A DNA stretch of 64,000 nucleotides from NCBI GenBank assembly GCA_000091205.1, contig AP006499.2; one strand, 5' to 3'. The position numbers and the translations under genes are program-made. Within the stretch, counting starts at the first letter, position 1; each line of letters starts with the position of its first letter. The notes beneath the pieces are model-generated. The model was not told the origin of the DNA and searched no databases. It saw only the letters and a list, made by a program, of their open reading frames with translations. Source of the DNA: Cyanidioschyzon merolae. Taxonomy: Eukaryota. This document shows positions 9,496 through 43,340 of this stretch, one piece after another.

Positions 9496-9616
9496 GGCAC
9501 AGGCGATGCAGTCGAACTATGCCACGGACTCGTTCCGCCGGACGTGGCGCGAGGCGCTCAGTCGCCTTTCGCACGGCTGGATTCATTGACATTCGGGGAC
9601 GCACTGAACAACTAAA

Positions 9617-10200
9617 GACTAAATGGCCGTAGGATCGCTTTTTATTAGGACCCGTACAGAGCCCAAGGGACGCATTCGCCTGATCGCCGGTGGAAATACA
9701 GACTGAATGGTCGTAGGATCGCTTTTTATTAGGACCCGTACAGAGCCCAAGGGACGCATTCGCCTGATCGCCAGTGGAAATACAGACTGAATGGTCGTAG
9801 GATCGCTTTTTATTAGGACCCGTACAGAGCCCAAGGGACGCATTCGCCTGATCGCCAGTGGAAATGCAGACTGAATGGCCGTAGAATCGCTTTTTATTAG
9901 GACCCGTACAGAGCCCAAGGGACGCATTCGCCTGATCGCCAGTGGAAATACAGACTGAATGGCCGTAGAATCGCTTTTTATTAGGACCCGTACAGAGCCC
10001 AAGGGACGCATTCGCCTGATCGCCAGTGGAAATACAGACTGAATGGTCGTAGGATCGCTTTTTATTAGGACCCGTACAGAGCCCAAGGGACGCATTCGCC
10101 TGATCGCCAGTGGAAATACAGACTGAATGGTCGTAGGATCGCTTTTTATTAGGACCCGTACAGAGCCCAAGGGACGCATTCGCCTGATCGCCAGTGGAAA
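9617..10200. repeat. Tandem minisatellite, 84-bp unit, about 7 copies (about 95% identical).
   Basis: Unit GACTGAATGG(T/C)CGTAG(G/A)ATCGCTTTTTATTAGGACCCGTACAGAGCCCAAGGGACGCATTCGCCTGATCGCC(A/G)GTGGAAAT(A/G)CA repeats with period 84 (copies start about 9617, 9701, 9785, 9869, 9953, 10037, 10121). It keeps two minus-strand frames open, which produces artefactual ORFs 9419..10729 and 9619..10323. Confidence 0.95.
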
Positions 10201-14932: not shown

Positions 14933-14989
14933 ACTCCCCGGAATGCGTGCACAGCAGTCGAAGCGTTGAATGCGTCGAGCGCACGAACG

Positions 14990-15100
14990 TGCGCATGCAT
15001 GCATGCATGCATCATGCGCTGATGCAGGCACACAGGCACGGATGCAGGCACGGATGCAGGCAAGGATGCAGGCACGGATGCAGGCACACAGGCACGCAGG
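14990..15100. repeat. Simple-sequence tract (GCAT)5 followed by about 6 copies of a 12-mer GGATGCAGGCAC. Lies in the 5' flank of the LPD gene.
   Basis: gcgcatgcatgcatgcatgcatcatgcgc…ggatgcaggcacggatgcaggcaaggatgcaggcacggatgcaggcac, read directly from the sequence. Confidence 0.9.
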
Positions 15101-16989
15101 GAGGCGCTTTTGCCCTGCACGCGGCGTGCTCGGCACGCACTTGATCGCCGAGCTGATTCAAGCTCCATGCTCAACTGGAGCACATGTCCATGGTTGATGA
15201 AGCGTCCAAGCGTCTATATAGAGGCTCAAGTCGACCGACTGGTCACCGCTGGCAGCTGCATATTCTGAGGAATGCTGCTATGTTCAACTACTTTACGCTA
15301 TGCAATGCTGCAGATTCTCTTGATAAGTATAGCCCCTATTCTTTGAGTAAATTCTGGCTCGGCGTTGTTTTCCCATGAAGCGTTCTATCAAGGAATGGAG
15401 GCGCCCGCCTGACTAGCGTCGGTGCATATACATGCATGGTGTCTGGTTCACTTCATGCAACCTTTACGGGAGCTTTTGCGGAAGAGCAAGTGTGCGCGCC
15501 GAGCTCGCTGCGCGATGACTCTGGTGGAGAAATGATTTGTATGCGCTCACGGCAGGCTCGGCACACGAAGTATCACACGAACTGACGATTATCTCTAAAG
15601 CAAGCTCTGAATAGTCTTAGCTGACGGCATCTGTAGGTCTGGCGCGGACTGATGGCTGCGCCTCTTGACGCACATAACAATCGCGTCCTGAGGGATCCTT
15701 ATCCAGACTATATCCGTGTCAGATTAAAACGGAACACTAAATTGTGCGCTCTGCTCTTGCCTTTCATGCTTTCCGAACTTTTCTAGATCTACATCCTCGA
15801 CATTTCATGAGCAGCAATACGGGCATTCAGATTCACTGGTGATTGCGAGATTCTCAAGTGTCTCTTTGGAGAAGCTCCATGGACACGTTGCCGCTGGGTT
15901 TCTTTACCAAAACGGAATCAAGACTACACGCGACGAGCTCGAACAAAGCTTCGTAAAATAGGTGGTATCCATATCCAAGTCATGCGTGGAAGCCTCCACT
16001 CTTCCTGTTTACTCCCGTTTGGTACGCTTAAATAACGCGTTCTGCACGTTTTCCACCTCTGTGTCATGCCAAGTCGTTGGCGCAGCCAATGCGCGCCGCT
16101 GGATCGACGAAGAAGAAAACTCTAAGTTGGCCCATGACGAGTTGCGCTCAACGCCAAGCCCATATTTCACTAAACTTGTCTCACGAATTCGTCGATTCCT
16201 CTCCATAGACAAATCCTCCTCTCGTTGTTAACGACGAGAAGCCAGCATTCGACAGCAGCATGGTACCTCTGACCGTAAACGCTCTCAGATGTTTCCGTCC
16301 CTTCTGTTTGTATGGAAAACGGTAATGGGCTCGGACGTTGTTCATCGGAGCGGTCGTTTTCCGCGGAGAGTGCGTCACCGCTTCGCAGGGAAGGAACGTG
16401 GAACCATGGAAATTTCTCATCTTGTTCTCCAGTTTGGATTTTCTTTCTCGGACTTTTTTCATGATCGACAAGTTCACCGTCCATAGATCCACTGTCGAAT
16501 AGAACAGCATTCGCTTGTGCGTGCAGCGGACGAAGGACTCGCCGAGGGCATCGCCCAGAAGAGGCCTGTGAATATGAGGTACGGCACTTGGCATGGAACC
16601 AGAGGAAGGCAACGACACGAGCTTTCAGTACCCCTCAAGCGCATCTACCGCTTGATGAAAGAAGCATTCTCACGCGTCAGGACGGCCCTTAAAGAACAAA
16701 GTATGGTGGACGTATGAGAACGTCAGTAAACAGCCAAGTGCCGCCCTTTCCAGGGCACACCAGGATGTTTACAACGGAGATAAAAGTTGGCAAGCGAAAC
16801 GTTGATTACAACCACCGCCTGTGCATAAAGTGCAATGAAACCATCCGACAGTAGGGAAATCGGTACTTGAACACTGCCGTCAACTTCCTGCGACGACGAC
16901 TGACACCGGACCTTGAGGGAACGGAGAGATCGGCGGCTTCCAAGCCCTGGATACAACAGCGGAAAAGAGTGTATTCGAGTCAAAAGCTC

Positions 16990-17745
16990 CCAAAGGGTGA
17001 CAACGATGATCTTACACAGAGACTATAACTTAAGAGTATACAAATCCGAGATAGATACCCTGTTCCCTTTCTTTCGGACTCGTTGTCGAGAATCCGTCGA
17101 AGGGGTGACAACGGTGATCTTACACAGAGACCATAACTTAAGAGTATATAAATCCGAGATAGATACCCTGTTCCCTTTCTTTCGGACTCGTTGTCGAGGA
17201 TCCGTCGAAGGGGTGACAACGGTGATCTTACACAGAGACCATAACTTAAGAGTGTACAAATCCGAGATAGATACCCTGTTCCCTTTCTTTCGGACTCGTT
17301 GTCGAGAATCCGTCGAAGGGGTGACAACGGTGATCTTACACAGAGACCATAACTTAAGAGTATATAAATCCGAGATAGATGCCCTGTTCCCTTTCTTTCG
17401 GACTCGTTGTCGAGGATCCGTCGAAGGGGTGACAACGGTGATCTTACACAGAGACCATAACTTAAGAGTATATAAATCCGAGATAGATGCCCTGTTCCCT
17501 TTCTTTCGGACTCGTTGTCGAGGATCCGTCGAAGGGGTGACAACGGTGATCTTACACAGAGACCATAACTTAAGAGTATACAAATCCGAGATAGATACCC
17601 TGTTCCCTTTCTTTCGGACTCGTTATCGAGAATCCGTCGAAGGGGTGACAACGGTGATCTTACACAGAGACTATAACTTAAGAGTATATAAATCCGAGAT
17701 AGATACCCTGTTCCCTTTCTTTCGGACTCGTTGTCGAGAATCCGT
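16990..17745. repeat. Tandem minisatellite, 108-bp unit, 7 copies, about 200 bp upstream of the condensin CAP-D2 start codon.
   Basis: Unit GGGTGACAACG(G/A)TGATCTTACACAGAGAC(C/T)ATAACTTAAGAGTATA(T/C)AAATCCGAGATAGAT(A/G)CCCTGTTCCCTTTCTTTCGGACTCGTTGTCGAG(G/A)ATCCGTCGAAG with period 108 (starts about 16995, 17103, 17211, 17319, 17427, 17535, 17643). It keeps 3 frames open, which produces artefactual ORFs 16913..17860, 16980..17837 and 17023..17583. Confidence 0.95.
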
Positions 17746-17960
17746 CGCTCAAACAATCGTCCACGACGCATTTGAATTCCCGGGCCGCCCTGTCCAATCT
17801 GCCGCGTCAGGCACAGCGGAGGCGCTGGCGCGTTCACGGCGGCGCTCTACGAACCTCTAGCTCTACCAACAAGTCATTGGACGAGAGCGTCGTTACGAGA
17901 ATATCGGAGCACCGTCGCTCTTGGACGACAACCAGGAGGCAAGGGTGAGCAGAAGTGACA

Positions 17961-20900
17961 ATGCGAACCGAACGCGGCAATGCAGTTGCTTCCTCGGAAG
18001 CTGGGGCAATCTGGTTCCAACTTCTTCAAGCAATTGGAGTGCCATGCTCGAGTTCCGACGATTCAGACTGGCTCTCACCGTGGAGGCTGCTGCTTCAGAC
18101 GCAGTACGAACGGTTCATCGCTCACTGGTACAGACAAACAGAAGAACCAACACGTGCTGAGGTGGAGGAATCACTTGGTCGTCTTTGCGTAGGTGACTCG
18201 CTAGGCCTGGATATATCTGCGGAGAACGGCGACGCTGAGCGGATACCGTTGGAGTTTTTAGGCTCGGGGCACGATACGCTGTCGCTGCATCAGATCCCGG
18301 TGGCGCTTGTCCATATGGAAAAATTCTGTTTCGCTCTTGAATCGGCCCTGGAAGGTGTCAACAGAGAGCCGGCGCGCACCGACGTCCAGCCGGCGAGTCA
18401 GGGTGGCGACAGCGTTCATACGGGTGCTGAATCCGTGGTTACGGGGCTCTATGCTTCCTGTCCGGACGTTTCAAGTATCATTGGAGTGCTGTACGCATGG
18501 ATCAGGGTCGGTATGCAGCTGGAAGAGCAGTGTGGTGCTGCCTTAGTGCGTCGCAAGCGGGCCGTGCAATTCAGCCAAGAGGGCGCACCTGAGAAGCGAG
18601 CAGCATCGGAGCAAAACTTTCGCAATGGCGACAAACAAGAGAGAGACGAGCGCTTCCGAAACCAGACTACTTGCCGTGTAACAAGTGATAGAGCCTCCAG
18701 TTCCGACGATTCAGCCGAGGACTCACAGGGAAAAGACCATGAGCAAGCCAGTACCGGGCTTTCAGATGTTTTGTTCACGCAGACACGCCTCAGGGCTGCG
18801 GTGCTTAGCATGCTCGCTAGCCAGGCGTACTGGCGTGTACTTTCCGTCATGCCCGAAGCTTTCGTTCCCTTCGTCTTCAAGGCCGCTGTGCACGCCCTGA
18901 GGCAAATGACGCGCGCGCAAGGAATCGGAGCGCTCGTCGAGGAGGTCAGCACGAAAACGCTATCCGCGCTTGCCGCTCTCTTCGACTCCATACCATGGAT
19001 TCGCTATCTGCTGCGAATCGGTATCCAACAAGTGTCGGTCACAGGACCACTTCAGCCTCAAGGTCACCGCGGGTCGCCGCTCGCCGATGATGATTCTAAC
19101 TCAGCGGGCCTCGAAGAATCCCTGAGCGGTGCATCAGAACTCATCCTCCGCAGATTGGTTGCAGTCGGGCTGAACAAGCCACGTTCCACCAAGCTGCTAT
19201 GCTCGAAGGAACAGGTTTTTCGAAGTGCTTGGAAGAATATGATCATGGTGACTGCATTCTCATCCGAGCAGCTCGTTCGCGGAGCACTACGTCCTGTTCT
19301 GAATCTGTTCATAGAGGGTCTCTCTCTCAAAGGAGCGGCGCCGGTTATCGATCCCAGCCCAACCGCTACCCCGGCAGCGTCCAGTAATGCGCTCCACTCG
19401 CTTTCGACTGCGTTGTGTGAGCTTCTCCAGGCTGCCGGGAGAGAGGCCCCAGAAGAGGCGGGCACAAGCATTACGGAACGAATCTCAGCCGCGGTGCTTG
19501 TTCTGCTTCAGCATTTAAGCATCCGAGCGCCGGAGACGGCGGTTCGTCGCTCCACTCTAGCACAGTGCATTTTATCCTTTTTGATCACAATGGAATCGAC
19601 CGATATCTACCGCTTCTGCTCTTTCGTTCAGAAACTCACACAGCATCCACGTGCAGCGGTTCGATGTCTGGCTTTGGAGATCGCTGCGAACATCGAGGAG
19701 GAGCCGGATGATGACCCCGCTAAGTCTTCAGAGGACGCCGCGGTAGCCTGGGCGCTCTTCTATCGGTCAATTTGGGCTCGAATACGTGATCGTCATGCCC
19801 TGGTCCGAGCACGGGCGCTTACTGCCACAGCTGCAGCCTTGGATCACCTTGCCGGTGCGAATCAGTCCAAGGCGCGAGCGCTGCTGCTCCGTGAGCGCCA
19901 ACTACTCATCAGTCGATTGCGGGACGAAAAAGCACCCGTGCGAAAGAGTGCCCTCACGCTCGCGTTCATAACGCTGGAGATGCTGGCGCAGCGAAGCGAA
20001 TGGACAAGAGCTGCAGATCGCATCCTGGCTGCTGTGCAGGAGCGATGTGCAGATACACACCTCGCGGTACGACTCGCAGCTGCACAGCAGGTTACGAGAC
20101 TCGCCAGTTCGGCACCGAGTGCGTTTCGAGAGCGCTTCATCAACGCCTGGTGTGACAGCGTGTTGCAACTGGTCTACGATCCAGAGCCGGCTGTCGTTGA
20201 AGCGTGCCTTGAAGGCTTTCTGGAGCTCCTCTTCAGCGCTCAAAACAGCGTCGCGGATGCACCAGCGGAAACCCAGTCGCAGGTGTGCCCACTCGTTGGG
20301 AACACTGTGCTCACGATAGCGGCTGGGAAAGGAGACCCACGAAGACCGTTCCTGTTCCTGCTGTGGCATCGCTTAAGCCAGCGAGCGCCGCTACCAGACA
20401 CCCTCTATCAGTGGCTCTGTGAAAGTGCGCATCCACAGGGGCAACCGGGCGCCTGGCATCTGCTTGCTCAACTCACATCCTATGCGGAAACTGCGCGCCA
20501 GGCAGTGGTGCGGCATATTCTGGAGTCTAACCAGCGGATTCTGATTGATCTCGATCCTGACGATCCCGTAGCCAATGAAGTGACTCAGGTTGTGGCTCAG
20601 ACGGCGCCCGCTGCCGGCCGTCTGGTCCCGCTTATCCAGAGTGATGCGCGCACTCTACTGTTTCAGCTCCGAGGCAATCCTGGTCGGATACCAGCGCTCA
20701 TCCAGTGCCTTGCACGGGTTGCCACCAACCCGCATTGGTCCCAAGAGCTCATTCAGGCTTGTTCCGAGTTGCTCTCCCTTGAGCCGGCGGAATACGCCTG
20801 TTCCTCGCTGGAGGAGCGGGCGTGTGCGCTTACGGCGTGGAGTGAGGTCGTCTTGAGCGGCCTCGCTGCGCCCGACGACGAGCGCCTTCGAGTGCGCGCA

Positions 20901-22823
20901 GAGGCTATTCTCGCTGATTCCGAGCGAAGCTCTGAGAATTTGCGCGCCTATGCACTACTGGCCCTGGGGAAACTCTGCATTCGGGGCGATGACACCCTTG
21001 CCCGGCATGGGACCAGCGTGCTCCTTCGCGAACTGGAGACCAGTGCCTCCTCGGTGTTGCGGAATAACGCGGTGCTCATTCTCGCGGATATGTGTCGTGT
21101 ATTTTCATGGCTTGCTGATCAGTACGCTGTGCGTATTGCAGCTGCAATGCGAGATCCGTCTCCACTCGTTCGCCGTCAAACCACGATGGTGCTTACAGGT
21201 CTCCTCGAAGAAGAATTCGTCAAGCCGAAAAAGGACGGGCTCGTGTTCCTCTTCCTATCCGTAACGGAAGACGATGATCCGATCGTGAGCAAGCTCGCCC
21301 GCCAGTGCCTCGAGAGAGTCTTCTTTCCCCGGAATCCTGCCGAGCGGGTGCATCAGCTCCTCGAATCACTCTTCTACTTCAATGACTGTACCTGTCACCC
21401 TCGATATAACCAGCATGCTGGAATGCACCAATCTCGGGCGGAGAGAGCGCGCTTCACTTTTCCGCAACAGGAAGCGTCACGTCATCGAATATACCAGTAC
21501 TTGATAAGCAACTGCACGGATGAGCAAGTGCTTTTGATTGCGGATCGTCTCGCAGCGGAGCTCATTGGCGGTCTACTGGACGGCGAGATGGGGCCCTTTC
21601 CCGCTATCCTGGACGAGGATTCGAGCGTGTACAACGTTGTTTCGGATACGTTGAAGCTGCTCGCCAGCCGGAATCTCGCAGGCGAGCGTTGGCACCTCGG
21701 CACGCTAGGCTCCTCGATGCATTCCCTGGAATGGATCACAGAGGCAGAAACGGAAACGGAAACGACGGCCATGTGGCTGTTACCTGCGGCAACGAAGCAA
21801 ACTGTGAGAACAACGGGAGCACTCGCCACAGCGCCAGTCGCCATCCAAAGCACCACTGGGGCACAAGCCGGCCTGGAAGCGCCGAGAAGCGCCCAAGGGC
21901 TCGCATCCGCTCAAGCGCGGCCGACGACTCGAGACGCATTGCCACGTGCTGGGAACGCTTCCGAGGAAACAGCACTGCAAGTGTTCCGGGGGCATCTGCT
22001 GCCAGTGCTCGCGAGGCAGAGTCTCGAGCAGACCATCCTGCCGGCTCTGGTTGAACTGCGTCGACATTTCGAACAACTGAAACATCCCCTAGTAGGCGTC
22101 GTTATCGAAGCGATTCGTGAGCAATTGCGACCTCATCGTGCAGACTTGTGGGTGCTCCTAAGAGACGACCCCGTGTTTGCCCGCGAAATCGCGCATGATC
22201 TTCATCAAGAGACAGCGGCTTTGGAGCGACAACGTGCATCCAGCTCCGCTAGGGTAACCCTTTCGACGCAAGTCGCCAAAGCAGGGCATACACCGCGTGG
22301 AACACCTGGACTGCGGCCATATCCAGACTCCAACAGTGCCGCACGACCGCGTCGCAGAGGCAGTTTTGGACCGCCGCCGCTTCAGGAAACAAATCAGGAT
22401 CGTAGTCCACGCACGCCAGCTGCTCAGTTGATGACAGTCAAACTCGTTCACGAAGACATCTTGACGAGCCGCCTTCGACGACCACGGCAGTCCGGCTCGG
22501 GGACGAAGACACCGGCCACGCACTCCGTACGCAAGTGCGTATCATTCACGCCCAGTCTCGTAGAGTCTAGAACCGAAGCCGAGACCGAAGTATCGCCACC
22601 AAGAAACTCCAGAGGCACACCGTACCCGCTGCACCGCGTCACGCCGCGCAGTGCGGGAGACCCCGCTTCTGGAACTCCCCTGTCGACAACGCTTCTCGAC
22701 GCGGTGGACGGTCTCTCGATCTCGTTTGAGGTACCGAATCAGTCGTCGGTTCCATATGAGAGGCTCATTCGCCAACGTCGATGTCGACGACACCTGGACG
22801 GTCGCTACCCATCGCCTTTCTAA
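17961..22823 (+). CDS. CAP-D2: Condensin complex subunit 1 (CAP-D2 / Ycs4 / Cnd1 family), 1620 aa.
   Basis: C-terminal Cnd1 domain: LLALGKLCIRGDD…LLRELETSASSVLRNNAVLILADMCRVFSWLADQYAVRIAAAMRDPSPLVRRQTTMVLTGLL…DDDPIVSKLARQCL. Long HEAT-like body. ATG verified at 17961 (17955 in the track is GTG). Confidence 0.8.
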   Translation: MRTERGNAVASSEAGAIWFQLLQAIGVPCSSSDDSDWLSPWRLLLQTQYERFIAHWYRQTEEPTRAEVEESLGRLCVGDSLGLDISAENGDAERIPLEFLGSGHDTLSLHQIPVALVHMEKFCFALESALEGVNREPARTDVQPASQGGDSVHTGAESVVTGLYASCPDVSSIIGVLYAWIRVGMQLEEQCGAALVRRKRAVQFSQEGAPEKRAASEQNFRNGDKQERDERFRNQTTCRVTSDRASSSDDSAEDSQGKDHEQASTGLSDVLFTQTRLRAAVLSMLASQAYWRVLSVMPEAFVPFVFKAAVHALRQMTRAQGIGALVEEVSTKTLSALAALFDSIPWIRYLLRIGIQQVSVTGPLQPQGHRGSPLADDDSNSAGLEESLSGASELILRRLVAVGLNKPRSTKLLCSKEQVFRSAWKNMIMVTAFSSEQLVRGALRPVLNLFIEGLSLKGAAPVIDPSPTATPAASSNALHSLSTALCELLQAAGREAPEEAGTSITERISAAVLVLLQHLSIRAPETAVRRSTLAQCILSFLITMESTDIYRFCSFVQKLTQHPRAAVRCLALEIAANIEEEPDDDPAKSSEDAAVAWALFYRSIWARIRDRHALVRARALTATAAALDHLAGANQSKARALLLRERQLLISRLRDEKAPVRKSALTLAFITLEMLAQRSEWTRAADRILAAVQERCADTHLAVRLAAAQQVTRLASSAPSAFRERFINAWCDSVLQLVYDPEPAVVEACLEGFLELLFSAQNSVADAPAETQSQVCPLVGNTVLTIAAGKGDPRRPFLFLLWHRLSQRAPLPDTLYQWLCESAHPQGQPGAWHLLAQLTSYAETARQAVVRHILESNQRILIDLDPDDPVANEVTQVVAQTAPAAGRLVPLIQSDARTLLFQLRGNPGRIPALIQCLARVATNPHWSQELIQACSELLSLEPAEYACSSLEERACALTAWSEVVLSGLAAPDDERLRVRAEAILADSERSSENLRAYALLALGKLCIRGDDTLARHGTSVLLRELETSASSVLRNNAVLILADMCRVFSWLADQYAVRIAAAMRDPSPLVRRQTTMVLTGLLEEEFVKPKKDGLVFLFLSVTEDDDPIVSKLARQCLERVFFPRNPAERVHQLLESLFYFNDCTCHPRYNQHAGMHQSRAERARFTFPQQEASRHRIYQYLISNCTDEQVLLIADRLAAELIGGLLDGEMGPFPAILDEDSSVYNVVSDTLKLLASRNLAGERWHLGTLGSSMHSLEWITEAETETETTAMWLLPAATKQTVRTTGALATAPVAIQSTTGAQAGLEAPRSAQGLASAQARPTTRDALPRAGNASEETALQVFRGHLLPVLARQSLEQTILPALVELRRHFEQLKHPLVGVVIEAIREQLRPHRADLWVLLRDDPVFAREIAHDLHQETAALERQRASSSARVTLSTQVAKAGHTPRGTPGLRPYPDSNSAARPRRRGSFGPPPLQETNQDRSPRTPAAQLMTVKLVHEDILTSRLRRPRQSGSGTKTPATHSVRKCVSFTPSLVESRTEAETEVSPPRNSRGTPYPLHRVTPRSAGDPASGTPLSTTLLDAVDGLSISFEVPNQSSVPYERLIRQRRCRRHLDGRYPSPF

Positions 22824-34831: not shown

Positions 34832-35736
34832 CGACGACGCCGGCCGCAACGTCGCAACGCACCTGGACTGGGTGCCGGCGCTCGCACCAGCACCGATTGC
34901 GCGCCATCCTACATGCGGATGTCGATATTGCTGGTACCGTATTGACCGGTGTGCTGGATCGACTGGGCGTTTCTATTGACCAGGAATCCCCGCAACTGCG
35001 CAATGCTTATCGAAATGCGGGAAAGCGTCCGTTATTCCAGGCCCTGGCCCTATGTTCGACGAGCGGCTAGCCATGCTTCCCTTCACAGTAGCTGCTCAAT
35101 GCATACGCTAGCATCGAGCGGAGGATCCTGATCGGACGTTCCCGGATTTGCAGACACAGTGAACGTTCAGCGTACAGAGTTTTGAATGTGCAGGGGAACG
35201 TTCACGTTGCATAGCATTCAGAGCAGTGCGTATGAATCCCCTTCTTTTTTGAGGTTCAAAAGCGGTGAATCTAGCCGGAGTACCTCGTACGCGCCGATGT
35301 ATCTAGACGCTCCCGGCAAAAAAGACGACCATATCCCTCCAGACGCTTTTGCATTCCACCGGCTCAAAAGCAGTCTTCCCTGTCGCGCGCCGTGGCACGA
35401 TCGAGTTGTCGACCCCGCAAGTACCAAGCTCTTTGCGGATGCTCCTCGGAGACTGGGGGCAACCCCTTTGGCCAGACCTAGCGGGATATCAGGCTCGGAG
35501 GTTGCCGCGTGCGACGTGCCAGCAAGCCGAGCTTTACCACAAGCGCAAAAGCATCCATAGGAATTTGCTTCGATGTATCGATGCCACATCGTACGCGTGA
35601 GGAGCTCGCGTCGGCCGTCGCCTCTGTATCGACCGTTTCGATCACGCGCGCACGCAGCGCGCGCCATATGGCCGTCTGCCGCTGCAGTGCACGCATCGGC
35701 CGTTCTGGGATGCGTGCTGTGTTGCGTGCACGCACT

Positions 35737-35748
35737 GCACGCATGCGC
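35737..35748. promoter_or_regulatory. GCACGCATGCGC 12-mer about 100 bp upstream of the Cdc20/Cdh1 ATG. Identical 12-mer upstream of the PMA gene.
   Basis: Exact string gcacgcatgcgc at 35737-35748, embedded in a GCGTGCACGCAC/GCATGC-rich tract (35640-35750). A TATA-like 'gcgctataaacagcg' lies about 25 bp further downstream. Confidence 0.4.
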
Positions 35749-35844
35749 TGAGATGCTGTCCAGTCGTACAGCGCTATAAACAGCGTTGATGTTGCTGCAA
35801 GTTGGTGCAATTTGGTCTATCGTGGAAGATAAGAGAGAGTTGTG

Positions 35845-38811
35845 ATGAGCACGGCTTGGACGCCACGAAGATCCCGTCGCTCAGGAGATCGTTTCATTCC
35901 CGTACGGGAACGTGACTCAGCGCTCGGACTTGACAGCACGCAACTGCGCTTTCAACTGCAGGTTGCAACAGAGCTTAGTTTTCAAGGTAGGAACACTCCA
36001 TCTCGAGACATTGCTGCTGAAAGTGAGAATAACGCCTCAGATGTGGGACAAGTGACCGAGTCCAGTCCGTCTCGGAGGCTACGAGACACGTCGCCGATGC
36101 ACCAGCGTCGGCTCTTGATGGCAGCTAGGGCACGCCACGTTGAGGGGAGCGAGGCGCTTGCGACTTTCGTTCCTGGCCACCAGATAGAGTCGGAACTAAG
36201 CCTGGCGCAGGCAGCCGAGCGGTATATTGAGAACGCACGGCGGGATTGGTCTGATATCTTCGGGGCTAGTCCAAGCGCTCCGGCACTACTGGTGTCAGGG
36301 TCAGAACGCGCTGGACAGCGCTCGCTGCAGTTAGAAACATCGCCTGATGCGGATGAGGGCACACTGACTTACCAAAGTCGCCTGGGTCGGAGCGTGAACG
36401 AGCCACCAGTGGAATCGTCTCGAGAGTCCGGCACGAGTCCGAATCGGGGTCTAGCGGCCGCAGAGCGCGCTGGAGTGCGAGCTGAGCTCGAGACCCTGCT
36501 TGCAACACTCTCTGTTGGCAGAGCGTCCGATGCACGTAATGGAGCATATGATGGGAGCGAGCGTCCAGCACGAACATCGCGGGCAGAGCAGCCCCCGGCA
36601 CGTCGTCAGAGCCGGCGTGAACGAGAGCTCGCGGATCTCCTGGAGCGCATGGACCGCGAGCAACGCGATGCAAACCACAGCGTCTCGTCGTCGTCCCGCA
36701 GTTCCACTGTAGAGCAAATCCGTGCTCTGCTACAGGCAGCAGCAGAGCTCGGTGATGCCGCTGATGACGTGGCGGTAGTTGATCTGGCAATGGAGCTTTT
36801 CGCGGACCCACGAGCGCTCTACTCAATGGAAACGCTTAGGGGAAGCGTTCAACACTTGGCAGGAACGCTCATGCGGGGTACATTGGCAAGCCCCGGAGGC
36901 ACCGGCATCTCGAGTCTCGCGCCTGGGATGCTTGCCACGGATGTGGGCAGCCGAGTCACAGAGCTTCAGGGCGTCATCACTTGGTCAGAGGGCGGTACCG
37001 TGACGCGTCCAGGCGCAGCAAACGCCAACGCGGTTCTGGCCCTGAGCGCTCATTTACCGCCGCATGCGCAACATGCTACGATCGAGTCAGCTACACGATC
37101 TGCGAACGAAGCTGCATACCTCACCCAGACCAGCGGAACCGGAGGTGCTGCACCGAATACTTCCACACCGGGGATTTCGCCGAGTACGACCGGGCGATTC
37201 GTTGTATCAGCGCCTGGTGGGCCATCCACGTACGCGATCATCCTGGAGAACGAATTGCTGCACGAGGTGAATACGACGCGCACTGAGCTCGCTACCGATA
37301 TGGATGCACTCGTTGCGGAGAATGAGAGTACATCGCCAACGGAACCACCACCGAGCGGCCGTCGTCCAGAACCCGGCTTTGGACTGGCCACGCCGCCCCG
37401 GCACTCGAATCCGACCCGAGCAACAAGAAACTCGCCAGTGGCCGCCTCGCCGGGAGCCAGCCACGTCTCGAGCTCGTCCGCGACACCAGTGGTCGCTCGT
37501 CGCAGCTTGCTGGAATTCTCTCGTCAGGATACCAGTGTGCATGAATCGAGCCCGTCGCCGCGTCATCGCCAGTACTCAGAGAATAACGGCTCACCGATTC
37601 GTCTCGATGCTTTGCGAACATCGCCTGTGCTTGCAGCGGATCCAACCATTGCTCGTCAACTTGGGCTTGGCCTGAGACGGAAACAGCGGAAAATAAGCAG
37701 AGTCCCCTTTAAGGTATTGGATGCTCCAAATCTCGCGGATGATTTCTACCTCAATCTGCTCGACTGGTCGGCCCGGAATATCCTCGCTGTTGGGTTGGGC
37801 AATTCCGTCTATCTATGGAACGCCTATAATTCCAAAGTATCCAAGCTGTGCGAGCTGGATACCCCGCCCCAAGGTGTCTGCTCCGTGTCGTGGGCACCGT
37901 CCGGTGACCTTATTGCTGTTGGGCTAGCCTCCGGGGTGGTCCATCTGTACGATCCGACACGCCAGGAGGCAGCCCAGATGCTAACCGGACACACGGCACG
38001 CGTCGGGTGTCTCGCCTGGAACGGGCCGCTGCTCGCAAGTGGCTCACGCGATCGCACGATCATGGAGCACGATGTTCGTGCGGGCAGAGAGCCAGTGCGA
38101 ACACTTGAAGCGCATCGCCAAGAAGTTTGCGGCCTGCGTTGGAGTTTCGACCAAACCCAACTCGCGAGCGGAGGCAACGATAACAAACTCTTCATCTGGA
38201 CACCGCAAGCGCGACGCCCGCTCTTTAGATTTGAAGAGCATGAAGCGGCAGTGAAGGCGGTGGCTTGGTCCCCGCACCAGCACTGTTTGTTGGCTAGCGG
38301 CGGCGGCACTGCGGATCGATGTATCCGTCTGTGGAACACAACCACCGGCTCCTTGCTCCAGTGCGTGGACACCGGATCCCAGGTTTGCAACCTGCTCTGG
38401 AGCCGCGCCGTCAACGAGCTCGTAAGTACCCATGGCTATTCCCAGAATCAGATTGTGCTTTGGCGATACCCGAGCATGCAAAAGGTGGTCACACTCACCG
38501 GACATTTGCTGCGTGTGCTGTACTTGGCTGCCAGCCCCGACGGTTCCGTTATAGTAACCGGTGCGGGCGATGAAACCTTGCGCTTTTGGAACGTTTTCCC
38601 GCCGCCACGAAGCGCTGCTCGCATGTCGCAACAACGAGCGGCCTCATCGTTGTCACCGTCGCGTCTGGGCGGGACGCGATCGCTGTACGCAGCGGCGTTG
38701 GCGGACCTCACGACGCTGCCGTCTGCGTACGCACCAACACCCAGTCAAGCGTCACCGATGCATGATCTCTGGAATACCAGCGCGATGATTCCGAGTTCAT
38801 TCATTCGTTGA
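35845..38811 (+). CDS. Cdc20/Cdh1(Fizzy)-family APC/C co-activator, 988 aa, with a low-complexity N-terminal extension of about 600 aa.
   Basis: N-terminal C-box DRFIPVR (residues 16-22). WD40 propeller FKVLDAPNLADDFYLNLLDWSARNILAVGLGNSVYLWNA…LASGGNDNKLFIWTP…LLASGGGTADRCIRLWN…. C-terminal IR tail (…SSFIR*). ATG verified at 35845. Confidence 0.85.
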   Translation: MSTAWTPRRSRRSGDRFIPVRERDSALGLDSTQLRFQLQVATELSFQGRNTPSRDIAAESENNASDVGQVTESSPSRRLRDTSPMHQRRLLMAARARHVEGSEALATFVPGHQIESELSLAQAAERYIENARRDWSDIFGASPSAPALLVSGSERAGQRSLQLETSPDADEGTLTYQSRLGRSVNEPPVESSRESGTSPNRGLAAAERAGVRAELETLLATLSVGRASDARNGAYDGSERPARTSRAEQPPARRQSRRERELADLLERMDREQRDANHSVSSSSRSSTVEQIRALLQAAAELGDAADDVAVVDLAMELFADPRALYSMETLRGSVQHLAGTLMRGTLASPGGTGISSLAPGMLATDVGSRVTELQGVITWSEGGTVTRPGAANANAVLALSAHLPPHAQHATIESATRSANEAAYLTQTSGTGGAAPNTSTPGISPSTTGRFVVSAPGGPSTYAIILENELLHEVNTTRTELATDMDALVAENESTSPTEPPPSGRRPEPGFGLATPPRHSNPTRATRNSPVAASPGASHVSSSSATPVVARRSLLEFSRQDTSVHESSPSPRHRQYSENNGSPIRLDALRTSPVLAADPTIARQLGLGLRRKQRKISRVPFKVLDAPNLADDFYLNLLDWSARNILAVGLGNSVYLWNAYNSKVSKLCELDTPPQGVCSVSWAPSGDLIAVGLASGVVHLYDPTRQEAAQMLTGHTARVGCLAWNGPLLASGSRDRTIMEHDVRAGREPVRTLEAHRQEVCGLRWSFDQTQLASGGNDNKLFIWTPQARRPLFRFEEHEAAVKAVAWSPHQHCLLASGGGTADRCIRLWNTTTGSLLQCVDTGSQVCNLLWSRAVNELVSTHGYSQNQIVLWRYPSMQKVVTLTGHLLRVLYLAASPDGSVIVTGAGDETLRFWNVFPPPRSAARMSQQRAASSLSPSRLGGTRSLYAAALADLTTLPSAYAPTPSQASPMHDLWNTSAMIPSSFIR

Positions 38812-39180
38812 CTTGTGGATGCACCAACATCCAATCACGCGTCACCGATGCATGATCTCTGGAATACCAGCGCGATGATTCCGAGTTCATTCATTCGTTG
38901 ACTTGTGGATGCACCAACATCCAATCACGCGTCATCGATGCATGATCTCTGGAATACCAGCGCGATGATTCCGAGTTCATTCATTCGTTGACTTGTGGAT
39001 GCACCAACATCCAATCAAGCGTCATCGATGCATGATCTCTGGAATACCAGCGCGATGATTCCGAGTTCATTCATTCGTTGACTTGTGGATGCACCAACAC
39101 CCAGTCAAGCGTCATCGATGCATGATCTCTGGAATACCAGTGCGATGATTCCGAGTTCATTCATTCGTTGACTTGCGCAA
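38731..39180. repeat. Tandem 90-bp repeat, 5 copies. The first copy is the last 26 codons plus stop codon of the Cdc20/Cdh1 gene; the remaining copies lie in the 3' flank.
   Basis: GCACCAACA(C/T)CCA(G/A)TCA(A/C)GCGTCA(C/T)CGATGCATGATCTCTGGAATACCAGCGCGATGATTCCGAGTTCATTCATTCGTTGACTTGTGGAT with period 90 (starts 38731, 38821, 38911, 39001, 39091). Each unit contains …FIR followed by TGA. Confidence 0.95.
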
Positions 39181-40150
39181 CACGTTCCGTGCATCGAGTC
39201 TGATGGCCTTGGTGAGCGATGCAAACGTTACAGGGCGCGGTTAGCATGCTTCTGAGCGTGCGTTCGTTCTGGACCGCAGTTCACTCCCTTGTGTTGGTCA
39301 AGGCCTTGCACGCTTTCCACTGCATCATAGCCCTGCTGCTATCAATATCGTTGCTTGGAACACACCCGTACTGATGTCCGTACTAATTCCCAGGCCGTAG
39401 GTAGCGCAGCGTCTGGAATGCTGGTTGGCAATGTGCATGCATTGTCGATGTTAGCGGGAACTCGTTTCGTTTCCAGTACACGATCAATAGATCAAACTGG
39501 AATTCCCGTGGAGCGTGATTGCATCGGGAACCAGGCTCCAGAGACTCGTGCTTTCTTCAATGATTGACGATCGAAGCGCCGAACCAGAATTCCTCGGTGC
39601 GCGATTGCGTCAGGAACATATAACCGATTTGCGCTAGCGTGGCGCCCTGCACGCAGCGCTCCACTAGGATCTGCAGCGCTCAGAGACTCGGTATCATGTG
39701 AGGAATGCATCCACGGCTGCTAGAACGCTCTGCGGTGCGAGCGGCGCTTGGCCGGCTGCGGCTACGACCTTTGGTGCCAACGCGCTGCCTCGTGTGTATG
39801 CCGGCGCTGCGCTTGAATTGCATCGATACTGTCGTTCTGGTTATGCGTCTTTGAGATGGATAAACCAGCGACCGTACGCTGTGTGACGCCTTGTGCATGA
39901 CCCTGGTGGAAGGATTTCGGATGCGCACCACGAAATAGTATGGAAAGTGTCATTCTGGCTATGCGCCCGTGATATATATGATCTAGCGCTCGTTTGCTGC
40001 ATCATACTCTTTACAAGACGTTGGTGGGCGGATTTTGACTGCACGCCGCTGCAGGGATTTTTCGCAGTCTTGGAGGCGCGCGAGCAGTCGCCTTGCCAGC
40101 AGTGCACACTGCCTGGTGCACATACGAGGGTTTTCTTGGGCGCCATGGGG

Positions 40151-42364
40151 TCACGTCACGTCCGCCAGAACCTGCAACAGTCGATCGAGGCGCACCAGGT
40201 TCTCCTCTGATTCGCCGGTATCTTTGCCCGTGAGGGTAGTCTCTCTGGCCATTTCCAACAACATGAGCGTCTTTTTCACTCCGAGGCGTTTTCCCGAGAG
40301 CGCTTCAATAGCCTTGTTGCGCTCTTTCTCGGAAGCGAATGCGAACCCAGAACCGCGCACCACACTTGCGACTTCCTCTGGTAACAGCCAGCTCGTCTGG
40401 AGACTAGCCTGAAAAGCCGACCGCAGCTCTAGCACATCAAGTACCTCGCTATTGCTCGTGGTGGCCACCACAAACAAACGTCGATTCGCAGGCGGGACTC
40501 GTTTCACCAGAACCAGCAACGACTGCACAACAAGGTTACTGAATCGCGGCCCGATGGGTGCATACTCCACGAGCCGCTCAATGTTATCGAGAACGATGAT
40601 GCTCAGCGACGAGCGATACGCATCCTCGAACGTTCTCGCAATCGCTGCAACCTTGGCCGGCTCACTGAACCCGACAAACTGTTCCGGCGCAATGAGGCGA
40701 ATAAAGGGAAAGTCGGATTCGATGGCTAGCTTGGCCGCCAAAGCGGTCTTGCCCGTGCCAGGTGCACCTTCAATGAGCAGCGTCATGAGAGGCGAGCGCT
40801 CCGCTTGTCGTACCTGATCACGAAAGAGGCGGCCGCTCTGCAAGAGGCGCTCCAATCGCGCCCCGTAATCAATAAAGCCTCCGACGAGACATCGTTGGAG
40901 CTCGTCCATGCTCACACCAAACGCAGGTCGTACTTCTTCCAGCGCTCGACGAAAGTCGTCCATACCGACGTAGACCGCATCGGGGTCTACGGGTTTCGTG
41001 ATCTGGTTCAGGTCAATGTGGCGATACAAAGCGTAGGCGGCTGCCGAGCGGCAGAGACCTTCGAGTTCTGCCCCGGAGTAGTTCCGGGTTTTCGCAGCGA
41101 GCTCCTCCAGTGATACGTCGTCGAGAAGCATTTTGTTTGCCCGCATTTTCGCAGTGTGAATTTGAAGGATCTGGAGGCGGCCCTGCTCGTCCGGTAAACC
41201 GATTTCGATATGTACTTCAAGTCGACCTGGGCGCAGTAACGCCTCATCAATCAGGTCTTTCCGATTCGTCATCCCTATGATCAAAATATTATTCAGTGCG
41301 TTCACACCATCGATCTTGCTCAAAAGCTGGTTCACGACGGTATCGTGGACGCCGGTCCCATCACGTTGGCTACCACGTTGTTTGCAGATTGCGTCAATCT
41401 CATCGAAGATGAGGATGTGCAGTTCGCTCTGATCACCATGGGCGAGGTAGTCGGCTTCGGCTTCTTTGAAGAGGTTGCGAATGTTCTCTTCGCTCTGTCC
41501 AACGTATTTATTGAGGATCTCGGGCCCGTTGACCACTTTGGGCTCCTTCCCGTTCAACATTTTGCCGATCTGTCGAGCGATCAGCGTTTTTCCGGTGCCT
41601 GGCGGACCGTGCAGCAGCATGCCACGCACGTGGCCAATACCGAGCTTCTGGATCACTGCTGGCGGGAAGACTCGGGACGCGAACGCCCGACGGAAGATGT
41701 CGGAAAACTCCTTGTCCAAACCGCCAATGCCCATGCGTTCAAAGTTAAAGTCTGCACGAAAGAGTTCGCGAGGCCGATTCTCGCTGCCACGAATACGTAC
41801 GTTCGCATCGCGAGCTCGCACGAAAAGGAAGCTGGTCTCTGCGCCGAGCATCGCCAACAGCGGCGAAACTGGCGTCGGTCGCCCGCCGTCTGGCGCGGCG
41901 GCCATCCCGTCCAGCCGGGCAGCAACTAGAAGCAACAGCGTGCCGTAGTAATCAAGCACCACTGACTGTCCTACGCTGATGACGAACGGCACCAGGCGTT
42001 TGCGTGCGAGTGCTTCGAGCTCGTCAGTGGACAACTCGGGAGCTGCCAGTGAACGTCGCTTCACCACAGTATCGATCTCAAAAGTCGCGGAAACGGCGTG
42101 ATGTGTGTCCTTGGTCAACGTGTAGGTGCGCACGGGCACCGCGTCGCCGAGGGCAAGCTGCAGCTCACGTCGCTGAACCGCGTTCAGACCAACGGTACCG
42201 CGCTCGACCGCAGCGTCCGCAGCGGTCGGGTACGCCCATTCCGTACCGAGAGTTACGAATGTAGCTTGCCTCAACTGTGCCAAGTCCTGGGGATGAAGGA
42301 AAACTCGGTTCGTTTTTGCCTGCTCTTGGCCGGGGCAGGCCGCGACGCGAAGCGTCAACGCCAT
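40151..42364 (-). CDS. NSF: N-ethylmaleimide-sensitive factor (NSF / Sec18), AAA+ vesicle-fusing ATPase, 737 aa.
   Basis: NSF-N domain, then D1 (GMLLHGPPGTGKTLIARQIGKMLN…ILIFDEIDAICKQRG…GMTNRKDLIDEALLRPGRLEVHIEI) and D2 (LIEGAPGTGKTALAAKLA…) AAA modules. ATG verified at 42364. Confidence 0.9.
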   Translation of the reverse strand: MALTLRVAACPGQEQAKTNRVFLHPQDLAQLRQATFVTLGTEWAYPTAADAAVERGTVGLNAVQRRELQLALGDAVPVRTYTLTKDTHHAVSATFEIDTVVKRRSLAAPELSTDELEALARKRLVPFVISVGQSVVLDYYGTLLLLVAARLDGMAAAPDGGRPTPVSPLLAMLGAETSFLFVRARDANVRIRGSENRPRELFRADFNFERMGIGGLDKEFSDIFRRAFASRVFPPAVIQKLGIGHVRGMLLHGPPGTGKTLIARQIGKMLNGKEPKVVNGPEILNKYVGQSEENIRNLFKEAEADYLAHGDQSELHILIFDEIDAICKQRGSQRDGTGVHDTVVNQLLSKIDGVNALNNILIIGMTNRKDLIDEALLRPGRLEVHIEIGLPDEQGRLQILQIHTAKMRANKMLLDDVSLEELAAKTRNYSGAELEGLCRSAAAYALYRHIDLNQITKPVDPDAVYVGMDDFRRALEEVRPAFGVSMDELQRCLVGGFIDYGARLERLLQSGRLFRDQVRQAERSPLMTLLIEGAPGTGKTALAAKLAIESDFPFIRLIAPEQFVGFSEPAKVAAIARTFEDAYRSSLSIIVLDNIERLVEYAPIGPRFSNLVVQSLLVLVKRVPPANRRLFVVATTSNSEVLDVLELRSAFQASLQTSWLLPEEVASVVRGSGFAFASEKERNKAIEALSGKRLGVKKTLMLLEMARETTLTGKDTGESEENLVRLDRLLQVLADVT

Positions 42365-42974
42365 AGCGCTACGTAGCGCTCAGTGGTGCGGTTGTTCCGC
42401 GTCCGTTTGCGAGTGCCGGTGGTTCCGACGCAACTGGTTAGTGAACGAACCTGCTCGAAAACTACCTCGATCAGTTAGCTTGATGAAGATGCGCACGACG
42501 GACGTCGCCCTCCACGAGTTGCGGTGCTGCTCGCGAGTGCGCAGAACGCGAAACGGTACGCGTAGCACGAAACGGCATGCGCGCTGTTGCTGCACTGCTT
42601 TTGTGAAAGACTGTACCATTAGGGTACAATAAGGAATATATTTGAATCAAGCGGACTCGATATTGGAATGACGCGTGTCCAGCGCTGGGATGACCATCGC
42701 CTGTTTTCCCTAACGCTACAATACTTTTGTGTGACAAAAACGTGTACATAGGCCCGCGTTTGCAGACAGCGCGGTTGATATCAGCTCGCTGTGAAGCATC
42801 AATGGTTCCACGCCCTACTTCCAAGTTCCATAACCCACTCTTTTCTCGGATACACTGGTGGTTTTGTACGTTCTATCGTGCATGTCGTGAGCACACGCAT
42901 TAGCGCTTGTAGCGCCGCTGCGGTCGGGGCATGGACATAGAACGGCTATGCCGTACCCCAGAGAGTGTCGGCTA

Positions 42975-43340
42975 AGGATGGTGGACGGAAACCCAGTAAC
43001 AGGTGCCTCCCAGCGTTTTTTGTTCGGTGGCTTTTTATTCGTTTCAGTTTCTCCGCGCGCGCGCGCACTTCGAGCCGGAGAGGCTGCCCCATGACGAAGG
43101 ATCCCGCCAGCTCCTCGGGCCGCGACTTGAGCACCGCACATTGTCTGATATTGACGGCAGCGTTGAGGTCTCGGGTCACGAGCTCCCTGCGTTTATTGCC
43201 TGTGGTGGAACCCATCAACGCAAGGATACATTGATCTCGGAAACTCAATGCGAATACAGCCTCATCATTGCCCCGTCTTGCGAGCAGATTTTCTGTCTCC
43301 ATCTAACCTCTTTTCCTTCGTCATTTGTTCTTCTTCGCTC
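42975..43340 (-). pseudogene. Copy B of the TnpB/Fanzor-like C-terminal fragment repeat. Lies 166 bp downstream (same strand) of the Tc1-like transposase remnant.
   Basis: Minus-strand frame: …FALSFRDQCILALMGSTTGNKRRELVTRDLNAAVNIRQCAVLKSRPEELAGSFVMGQPLRLEVRARAEKLKRIK… (RDLNAAVNI is the RuvC-III motif). An adjacent shifted frame reads …MYPCVDGFHH, a possible zinc-finger relic. Contains (CG)6. About 75% nucleotide identity to copies A and C. Confidence 0.6.

What the first reader, a model, noticed from the sequence alone, without database searches (positions are those of the whole stretch)
38731..39180. 90-bp tandem array reiterates the IR-tail exon end and stop codon of the Cdc20/Cdh1 gene
The last 26 codons of the APC/C co-activator (…APTPSQASPMHDLWNTSAMIPSSFIR*), including the functionally critical C-terminal Ile-Arg dipeptide and the TGA, form copy 1 of a 5-copy 90-bp tandem repeat that continues into the 3' flank. 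Unit length is a multiple of 3 and every downstream unit again encodes …SSFIR-stop. Stop-codon readthrough or unequal crossing-over would therefore append or alter IR tails without frameshift. The array also shapes the 3'UTR, possibly with reiterated regulatory sites.
Basis: seen in the sequence. Interest (0 to 1): 0.5.

Follow-up and report, generated by a model that had tools for sequence, protein, structure and literature searches.

The report
Variable tandem repeat at Cdh1 gene end

Summary
Window 38731-39175 holds 4.9 copies of a 90-bp unit at 97% identity. Copy 1 is codons 963-988 plus the TGA of a 988-codon, single-exon gene. Every later copy reads ...SSFIR-stop in frame. The window matches Cyanidioschyzon merolae strain 10D, chromosome 17, and the gene is Cdh1/Fizzy-related rather than Cdc20. 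The array is not an assembly artefact: all five copies differ, and an independent environmental contig carries a 2-copy allele with the same TGGAT junction. It varies in copy number: 21 other independent contigs have exactly one copy. Copy number does not follow flank haplotype. An Asn967 variant sits in untranslated copies in 10D but in the coding copy of other strains, which suggests exchange between copies. A neighbouring 84-bp array varies in the same way (7, 3, 2 or 1 copies). The best reading is a near-neutral minisatellite evolving by unequal exchange. Readthrough has no support: the sister genus uses TAA followed four codons later by TGA. One oddity remains: Cyanidiococcus carries a decayed copy of its own gene end exactly 90 bp downstream. 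Interest is modest.

The parts
35845..38811 (+). Cdh1/Fizzy-related APC/C co-activator gene: 988 codons plus TGA, single exon. It is identical to XP_005538164.1 of C. merolae 10D.
   Evidence: ORF. PF24807 CDC20/Fizzy WD40 domain, 422 bits against a cutoff of 200. Human FZR1 scores 456 bits against 337 for CDC20. Zero differences from P0041.
35887..35907 (+). C-box, DRFIPVR (residues 15-21).
   Evidence: Read from the translation. Conserved in the Cyanidiococcus ortholog.
38803..38808 (+). C-terminal Ile-Arg (IR tail), residues 987-988.
   Evidence: 113 of 120 top homologs end in IR.
38731..38820 (+). Repeat copy 1, the coding copy: codons 963-988, TGA at 38809-38811, then CTTG and the TGGAT junction. 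Variant states at unit positions 10/14/18/25/51 are C G A C C.
38821..38910 (+). Repeat copy 2, untranslated. States T A C C C. In frame it reads LVDAPTSNHASPMHDLWNTSAMIPSSFIR*.
38911..39000 (+). Repeat copy 3, untranslated. States T A C T C.
39001..39090 (+). Repeat copy 4, untranslated. States T A A T C.
39091..39175 (+). Repeat copy 5, 85 nt, untranslated. States C G A T T. It runs straight into the unique flank CGCAAC with no TGGAT.
39176..40150 (.). Unique spacer between the two convergent genes, present in all alleles. It is highly polymorphic: 25 variable sites in 975 nt. It holds no known RNA family or tRNA.
40151..42364 (-). Convergent neighbour: an NSF-like vesicle-fusing AAA ATPase, 737 aa.
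   Evidence: The orthologous cluster is named vesicle-fusing ATPase.

Best explanation
This is a copy-number-variable minisatellite (VNTR) at the boundary between the coding sequence and the 3' flank of the C. merolae Cdh1/FZR gene. An 85-bp segment, made of the last 78 coding nt, the TGA and 4 nt of flank, was duplicated head to tail with a 5-nt junction (TGGAT). This gives a 90-bp unit. The first copy keeps the native stop, so the protein is unchanged. Copies 2-5 are untranslated DNA just past the stop and add 360 nt in strain 10D. Shown: the array is real, it varies between 1, 2 and 5 copies among strains, and copy number does not follow flank haplotype. Inferred: it expands and collapses by unequal crossing-over, replication slippage or gene conversion. 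Meiosis is documented in this genus. The same exchange can move variants such as Ser967Asn between untranslated copies and the coding copy. Also inferred: the array is selectively neutral or nearly so. It is one of several similar intergenic minisatellites in this genome.
For: Reality of the array. All five copies are distinguishable. An independent metagenome contig, L022, has 2 copies with the identical TGGAT junction. The strain 10D genome was finished telomere to telomere using BAC clones, PCR and cycle sequencing of subclones (PMC1955436).

Copy-number variation. Twenty-one independent contigs from many samples, covering at least 7 protein haplotypes, run GACTTG|CGCAAC with one copy. Their stop-to-NSF gap is about 980 bp, against 1340 bp in the window, a difference of 4 x 90.

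Assembly control. The same contigs that show one copy at Cdh1 keep 3 and 2 copies of the neighbouring 84-bp array. Other contigs break at that array.

Haplotypes. L022 (2 copies) differs from 10D (5 copies) at 16 of 25 right-flank sites, but from single-copy L012 and L016 at only 3.

Exchange between copies. The A14 (Asn967) state is in untranslated copies 2-4 of 10D, in the coding copy of L022, and in single-copy L017/L018.

No sign of peptide-level constraint. Four of the five variable sites are nonsynonymous in frame.

No sign of a structured or known RNA.

Meiotic recombination is reported for Cyanidioschyzon (PMC13353863).
Against: The environmental contigs come from short-read assemblies of mixed populations, so some may be chimeric consensus sequences. 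L022's '2 copies' could be a collapsed larger array. Neutrality is inferred, not tested. All five variable sites lie in unit positions 10-51 and the 3' 39 nt are invariant; by chance this has probability (51/90)^5, about 0.06. Cyanidiococcus carries a decayed duplicate of its own gene end with the same 90-bp period, and its last 21 nt are 20/21 identical. That hints at either constraint or a site-specific mechanism. Transcription across the array is inferred only from contigs of other strains that look transcript-derived.
Confidence: 0.75

Rival explanations
1. The array is a functional element downstream of the stop. The repeated gene-end sequence would be a cis-regulatory site, for example for mRNA stability, 3'-end formation or convergent-transcription control, and its dosage would be tuned by copy number. 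That would explain why a copy of the gene end recurs at +90 bp in two genera.
For: Cyanidiococcus has a second copy of its own last 21 nt (20/21 identical) exactly 90 bp downstream, inside an otherwise decayed 90-bp duplicate. This is reproducible in three assemblies. In 10D the 3' 39 nt of the unit, including the junction, are invariant in all copies. Contigs that look transcript-derived span the whole convergent spacer in related strains.
Against: Twenty-one of 23 C. merolae alleles sampled have no extra copy and no decayed remnant, so extra copies are dispensable in nature. The unit's RNA folding is not significant (z -0.8 to -1.8) and there is no Rfam hit. The gene-end sequence differs at 5 of 21 positions between the genera, so no shared motif is evident. 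Short-tract gene conversion from the coding copy also explains the 20/21 identity.
Confidence: 0.12
2. Programmed stop-codon readthrough. Ribosomes would read through the first UGA and produce a Cdh1 isoform with a 30-residue extension (the residue decoded at UGA plus 29 more) that again ends in IR. The array would act as a 'backup IR tail' or generate isoforms.
For: All downstream units are in frame, and each ends ...SSFIR-TGA. The stop context is UGA-C, which from my own knowledge of the termination literature is the leakiest tetranucleotide in eukaryotes. In single-copy alleles a readthrough product would end ...RLACF and lose the IR terminus, whereas in 10D and L022 it would regain it.
Against: In-frame stops follow automatically from duplicating a unit that is a multiple of 3 and contains the stop. 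Downstream copies carry P>S, S>N, Q>H and P>S changes, so there is no sign of purifying selection. Most natural alleles lack the extension. In Cyanidiococcus the stop is UAA and a UGA follows 4 codons later, so its +90 copy is unreachable. No stimulatory RNA structure was detected.
Confidence: 0.04
3. Assembly artefact. The 10D reference would over-represent a single-copy sequence, and the true locus would have one copy, as in the other assemblies.
For: Twenty-one independent contigs show one copy. The 2007 finishing paper says the 2004 version of the 10D sequence contained more than 20 kb of misassembled or incorrect sequence, which that paper corrected (PMC1955436).
Against: Every copy has a unique combination of variants, with a stepwise gradient, which is not what duplicated reads produce. 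The 445-bp array should be short enough for single capillary reads to span (my own knowledge of that chemistry's read length). The TGGAT junction, which cannot exist in a single-copy locus, was assembled independently from an environmental sample. The one-copy contigs come from different strains that are 99.2-99.7% identical to the window.
Confidence: 0.03

Closest known systems
Minisatellites / VNTRs in or next to genes, for example 3'-UTR VNTRs such as the human SLC6A3 40-bp repeat (from my own knowledge)
   Same: Head-to-tail repeats with a unit of tens of bp. Variant repeats inside the array. Copy-number polymorphism among individuals. Location just past a stop codon. Turnover by unequal exchange or slippage.
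   Different: Here the unit begins inside the coding sequence and contains the stop codon. Copy 1 is therefore the functional C-terminus, and the remaining copies are untranslated pseudo-C-termini that appear to trade variants with it.
Cdh1/Fizzy-related (FZR1, CCS52) APC/C co-activators
   Same: CDC20/Fizzy-type WD40 propeller, N-terminal C-box (DRFIPVR) and C-terminal IR dipeptide. Best matches are human FZR1 and plant FIZZY-RELATED/CCS52 proteins.
   Different: The protein is about twice as long as typical orthologs (988 aa against 450-550). It has a long low-complexity N-terminal half and a roughly 60-residue linker between the propeller and the IR tail. The gene end is embedded in a minisatellite.
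Concerted evolution of tandem duplicates (the general phenomenon)
   Same: The Cyanidiococcus downstream copy resembles its own species' coding tail and not the C. merolae tail. In C. merolae a variant is shared between coding and untranslated copies.
   Different: One member of the array is under protein-coding constraint and the others are not. Independent duplication in the two genera cannot be excluded.

Membership tests
Minisatellite / VNTR | Tandem head-to-tail array with a unit of roughly 10-100 bp | tested here: met
   90-bp unit, 4.9 copies, 97% identity, no indels.
Minisatellite / VNTR | Copy number varies among individuals or strains | tested here: met
   5 copies in the window, 2 in L022, and 1 in 21 contigs. 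Control: the same contigs keep 2-3 copies of the 84-bp array.
Minisatellite / VNTR | Interspersed variant repeats within the array | tested here: met
   Five variable positions (10, 14, 18, 25, 51), and each copy is unique.
Minisatellite / VNTR | Germline or meiotic instability measured directly | not testable with these tools
   Needs tetrad or progeny typing. Meiotic recombination in the genus is reported in PMC13353863.
Cdh1/Fizzy-related APC/C co-activator | CDC20/Fizzy-type seven-blade WD40 domain | tested here: met
   PF24807, E 1.6e-126, 422 bits against a cutoff of 200, covering profile positions 1-292 of 292.
Cdh1/Fizzy-related APC/C co-activator | C-box (DR[FY]IPxR) near the N-terminus and an IR dipeptide at the C-terminus | tested here: met
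   DRFIPVR at residues 15-21 and ...SSFIR at the end. 113 of 120 homologs end in IR.
Cdh1/Fizzy-related APC/C co-activator | Closer to Cdh1/FZR than to Cdc20 | tested here: met
   Human FZR1 456 bits and yeast Cdh1 355 bits, against human CDC20 337 bits and Slp1 316 bits. Top database hits are named FIZZY-RELATED or CCS52.
Cdh1/Fizzy-related APC/C co-activator | Binds and activates APC/C | not testable with these tools
   Biochemical property.
Programmed stop-codon readthrough gene | The readthrough extension is conserved as coding sequence in relatives | tested here: not met
   Single-copy alleles give an unrelated 27-aa extension. The Cyanidiococcus extension is 4 codons (LRSG) before a TGA. 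Downstream copies carry mostly nonsynonymous changes.
Programmed stop-codon readthrough gene | Leaky stop context and/or a stimulatory downstream RNA structure | tested here: inconclusive
   UGA-C context in C. merolae but UAA-U in the sister genus. No significant structure: z -1.8 for the stop-spanning 90 nt.
Programmed stop-codon readthrough gene | Extended protein detected | not testable with these tools
   Needs ribosome profiling or proteomics.

The most novel reading that the evidence does not exclude
The tail repeat is not a transient accident but a long-lived or recurrently generated feature of the Cdh1 locus in Cyanidioschyzonaceae. Two genera whose Cdh1 proteins are only 58% identical each carry a duplicate of their own gene end, stop codon included, with exactly the same 90-bp period. 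In C. merolae the untranslated copies exchange variants with the coding tail. Under this reading the array would be kept either because the repeated gene-end sequence acts as a cis-element downstream of the stop, or because it serves as a reservoir that diversifies the linker just upstream of the IR tail of an essential cell-cycle regulator.
Probability: 0.1. Interest if true: 0.6.

Novelty: new member of a known kind. Interest (0 to 1): 0.3.

Why it matters
In practice, the array is a ready-made, highly informative strain marker for C. merolae. It is also a caution for annotation and short-read assembly at this locus. In concept, it is a clean natural example of a minisatellite that spans a stop codon. 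It shows how a tandem duplication can leave a protein untouched while adding untranslated sequence beyond the stop. It also shows how later exchange among copies can bring amino-acid changes (Ser967Asn) into the tail of an essential APC/C co-activator. The shared 90-bp period in Cyanidiococcus, if not coincidence, would point to a site-specific duplication mechanism or to long-term concerted evolution between coding and non-coding copies. None of this changes current understanding of APC/C regulation.

Tried and rejected
1. Kinetoplastid or stramenopile origin was considered from the intronless ORFs and a Thalassiosira hit. It was rejected once the protein cluster named C. merolae 10D.

2. Looking up the 10D reference protein P0041 returned no contig, so the reference chromosome itself could not be re-read.

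3. Contigs L017 and L018 end 243 bp and 6 bp after the stop. I suspected they broke at a hidden array, but both show the single-copy junction GACTTGCG.

4. I looked for a decayed second copy in the flank of C. merolae single-copy alleles and found none (score -9 against a null of -12.7 +/- 4.6; 1214 of 5000 shuffles reach it).

5. I tested for orthology between the Cyanidiococcus +90 copy and the C. merolae flank. There is no similarity, and the intergenic DNA is saturated between the genera.

6. Known RNA families and tRNAs in 38500-40300 and 35000-43000: none.

7. RNA structure of the unit, of the stop-spanning register and of the Cyanidiococcus region: z -0.8 to -1.8, not significant.

8. 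An external donor for the T-A-C variant cluster of copies 2-4: none elsewhere in the window.

9. A microhomology or slippage origin via GCACCAACAC and GCGCAACAC would predict an 83-bp period with no filler. The observed unit is 90 bp with a TGGAT junction, so I rejected this by inspection.

10. Literature searches found no description of this array or of C. merolae minisatellites.
Full report
**1. The observation**

Tandem Repeats Finder reports a 90-bp unit at 38731-39175, with 4.9 copies, 97% matches and no indels. A 59-nt core of the unit occurs five times at exact 90-bp spacing, and none is expected by chance. The gene is one uninterrupted ORF, from the ATG at 35845 to the TGA at 38809-38811, 988 codons long.

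Copy 1 (38731-38820) consists of codons 963-988 (APTPSQASPMHDLWNTSAMIPSSFIR), the TGA, then CTTG and a 5-nt junction, TGGAT. Translating onward in the gene's frame gives four more units that each end ...SSFIR*. Copy 5 is 85 nt long and runs into unique flank (CGCAAC...).

**2. Organism and gene**

The protein is identical over all 988 residues to XP_005538164.1 of Cyanidioschyzon merolae 10D.

The protein has the following features:
- A complete CDC20/Fizzy WD40 domain (PF24807, 422 bits).
- A C-box, DRFIPVR, at residues 15-21.
- A terminal IR dipeptide.

It scores higher against human FZR1 (456 bits) and yeast Cdh1 (355 bits) than against CDC20 (337 bits). Its best database matches are named FIZZY-RELATED or CCS52, and 113 of the 120 listed end in IR. 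It is the Cdh1/FZR ortholog. The downstream neighbour, on the opposite strand, is an NSF-like AAA ATPase at 40151-42364.

**3. The array is real and it is polymorphic**

I recovered 21 independent JGI and ENA contigs of close relatives. They are 99.2-99.7% identical in DNA and represent at least seven protein haplotypes. Every one reads ...GACTTG|CGCAAC... with a single copy. The gap from the stop codon to the NSF gene is about 980 bp, against 1340 bp in the window, a difference of exactly 4 x 90.

A scan of the metagenome collection for the unit-to-unit junction, which can exist only where there are at least two copies, found one contig, L022. It carries two copies joined by the same TGGAT. 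Together with the fact that all five 10D copies are distinguishable, this argues strongly against an assembly artefact in 10D.

There is also an assembly control. The neighbouring 84-bp array has 7 copies in the window (9616-10200). It is present at 3, 2 and 1 copies on the very contigs that carry one copy at Cdh1, and other contigs break at it. These assemblers therefore do not simply collapse such arrays, and minisatellite copy-number variation is a general feature of this genome.

**4. Internal structure and history**

The variable unit positions are 10, 14, 18, 25 and 51. The states in each copy are:

| Copy | Pos 10 | Pos 14 | Pos 18 | Pos 25 | Pos 51 |
|---|---|---|---|---|---|
| c1 (coding) | C | G | A | C | C |
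| c2 | T | A | C | C | C |
| c3 | T | A | C | T | C |
| c4 | T | A | A | T | C |
| c5 | C | G | A | T | T |

This is a stepwise gradient. In frame, four of the five changes are nonsynonymous (P966S, S967N, Q968H, P971S), so nothing suggests constraint on the downstream copies as peptides.

The A14 state (Asn967) occurs only in untranslated copies in 10D. In L022 it is in the coding copy, and L022's second copy has G14. In L017 and L018 it is in the single copy, and it also appears in proteins P0040 and P0042. The simplest reading is exchange between copies by unequal crossing-over or gene conversion. Recurrent mutation cannot be excluded.

Copy number is not tied to flank haplotype. L022 differs from 10D at 16 of 25 variable right-flank sites, but from single-copy L012 and L016 at only 3. 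This points to an old polymorphism in a recombining population, to repeated collapse to one copy, or to both. The caveat is that metagenome contigs can be chimeric consensus sequences. Meiotic recombination has been shown for Cyanidioschyzon (PMC13353863).

The TGGAT junction matches neither the upstream context (CGTAC) nor the downstream context (CGCAA). It is either filler from the founding duplication or a diverged old junction.

**5. Outgroup**

The ortholog in Cyanidiococcus yangmingshanensis, or a very close relative, shares the synteny. The lineage was named through the NSF protein cluster. Its Cdh1 protein is also 988 aa, is 57.7% identical overall, and ends ...PWNTSSVIPSSFIR. Its stop is TAA, and Tandem Repeats Finder finds no array.

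However, its last 21 nt, CCGAGTTCTTTTATCCGATAA, recur 20/21 identical exactly 90 bp downstream. No shuffle out of 2000 reaches that score, and the repeat finder detects it independently. The intervening 69 nt also keep weak but significant similarity to the coding tail: 3 of 5000 shuffles and 0 of 73 control windows reach the observed score. Three assemblies from different samples are identical across this region.

This downstream copy resembles the Cyanidiococcus tail and not the C. merolae tail. Over the first 69 nt the scores are 1 against -10. At the five positions in the last 21 nt where the two species differ, it matches Cyanidiococcus 5 to 0. So there are two possibilities: the duplication arose independently in both genera with the same period, or an ancestral 90-bp array has evolved in concert with the coding copy in each lineage. 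I could not tell these apart. C. merolae single-copy alleles show no decayed copy, and intergenic DNA is saturated between the genera.

**6. Function**

The spacer contains no Rfam family and no tRNA. The unit has no significant RNA structure. Eight contigs of about 6.5 kb from related strains run through both convergent genes; six of them start at 35725-35742, which is 103-120 nt before the ATG, and the other two (L001, L010) begin with 52-115 nt that do not match the window. These are probably transcript assemblies, which would mean the spacer is transcribed and the 10D array lies in a 3'UTR. This is an inference.

Readthrough of the first UGA would add a 30-residue extension (the residue decoded at UGA plus LVDAPTSNHASPMHDLWNTSAMIPSSFIR) that again ends in IR. 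In single-copy alleles it would instead end ...RLACF. Nothing supports this as a programmed event:
- The in-frame stops follow automatically from duplicating the unit.
- Most alleles have no extra copies.
- The downstream copies change mostly at the amino-acid level.
- The sister genus has UAA followed four codons later by UGA.

**7. Verdict**

This is a real, copy-number-variable minisatellite that happens to begin inside the Cdh1 coding sequence and to include its stop codon. It most likely evolves by unequal exchange, leaves the protein unchanged, lengthens the sequence just past the stop, and occasionally passes variants into the coding tail.

It is a new member of a known kind, and I found no published description. 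The one unexplained point is the identical 90-bp period of a decayed copy in Cyanidiococcus. Interest is modest, at 0.3.

Noticed in passing
window 9616-10200: An 84-bp x 7.0 minisatellite (98% identity) begins 121 bp after the stop of a 517-aa MMR_HSR1-type GTPase gene (7942-9495, + strand). Related assemblies carry 3, 2 or 1 copies, and several contigs end at or inside it.
   Followed up: yes
window 16995-17747: A 108-bp x 7.0 minisatellite (97% identity) lies about 200 bp upstream of the 1622-aa ORF at 17955-22823. It creates spurious repeat-filled ORFs on both strands (16913-17860 on + and 16980-17837 on -).
   Followed up: no
window 15033-15087: A 12-bp x 4.6 microrepeat (CAGGCACGGATG) lies at the 5' end of the long minus-strand ORF 13289-15136. 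It encodes a reiterated ACIR motif that probably lies upstream of, or in the leader of, a flavoprotein disulfide-reductase-like gene. The motif was read by eye and not tested.
   Followed up: no
window 9616-10200, 15033-15087, 16995-17747, 38731-39175: All four tandem arrays in the window have unit lengths divisible by 3 (84, 12, 108, 90), although at least three are intergenic. For the three long arrays the chance of this is about 1/27. It is unexplained and the sample is too small to interpret.
   Followed up: no
L023 6195-6215 and 6285-6305 (identical in L032 and L033): Cyanidiococcus carries a 20/21-nt copy of its own Cdh1 gene end, including the TAA, exactly 90 bp downstream. It sits inside a decayed full-length 90-bp duplicate, the same period as the C. 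merolae array.
   Followed up: partly
window 35725-35742, and about 42486-42848 (ends of contigs L006-L011, L015): Eight independent contigs of about 6.5 kb span both convergent genes. Six of them start within 18 bp of each other, 103-120 nt before the Cdh1 ATG; L001 and L010 begin with 52-115 nt that do not match the window. They look like metatranscriptome assemblies. If so, they mark a transcription start and show overlapping or abutting convergent transcripts across the roughly 1-kb spacer.
   Followed up: partly
window 39176-40150 versus 37231-38730: The convergent spacer is far more polymorphic among strains (25 variable sites in 975 nt) than the adjacent 1500 nt of coding sequence (5 sites). 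Its mosaic haplotypes are consistent with recombination or with chimeric metagenome consensus sequences.
   Followed up: partly
window 35845-37640: The N-terminal 600 or so residues of this Cdh1 ortholog are a long, low-complexity extension rich in Ser, Ala, Pro and Arg. Typical FZR proteins lack it (988 aa against 450-550). The Cyanidiococcus ortholog has the same 988-aa length despite only 57.7% overall identity.
   Followed up: no
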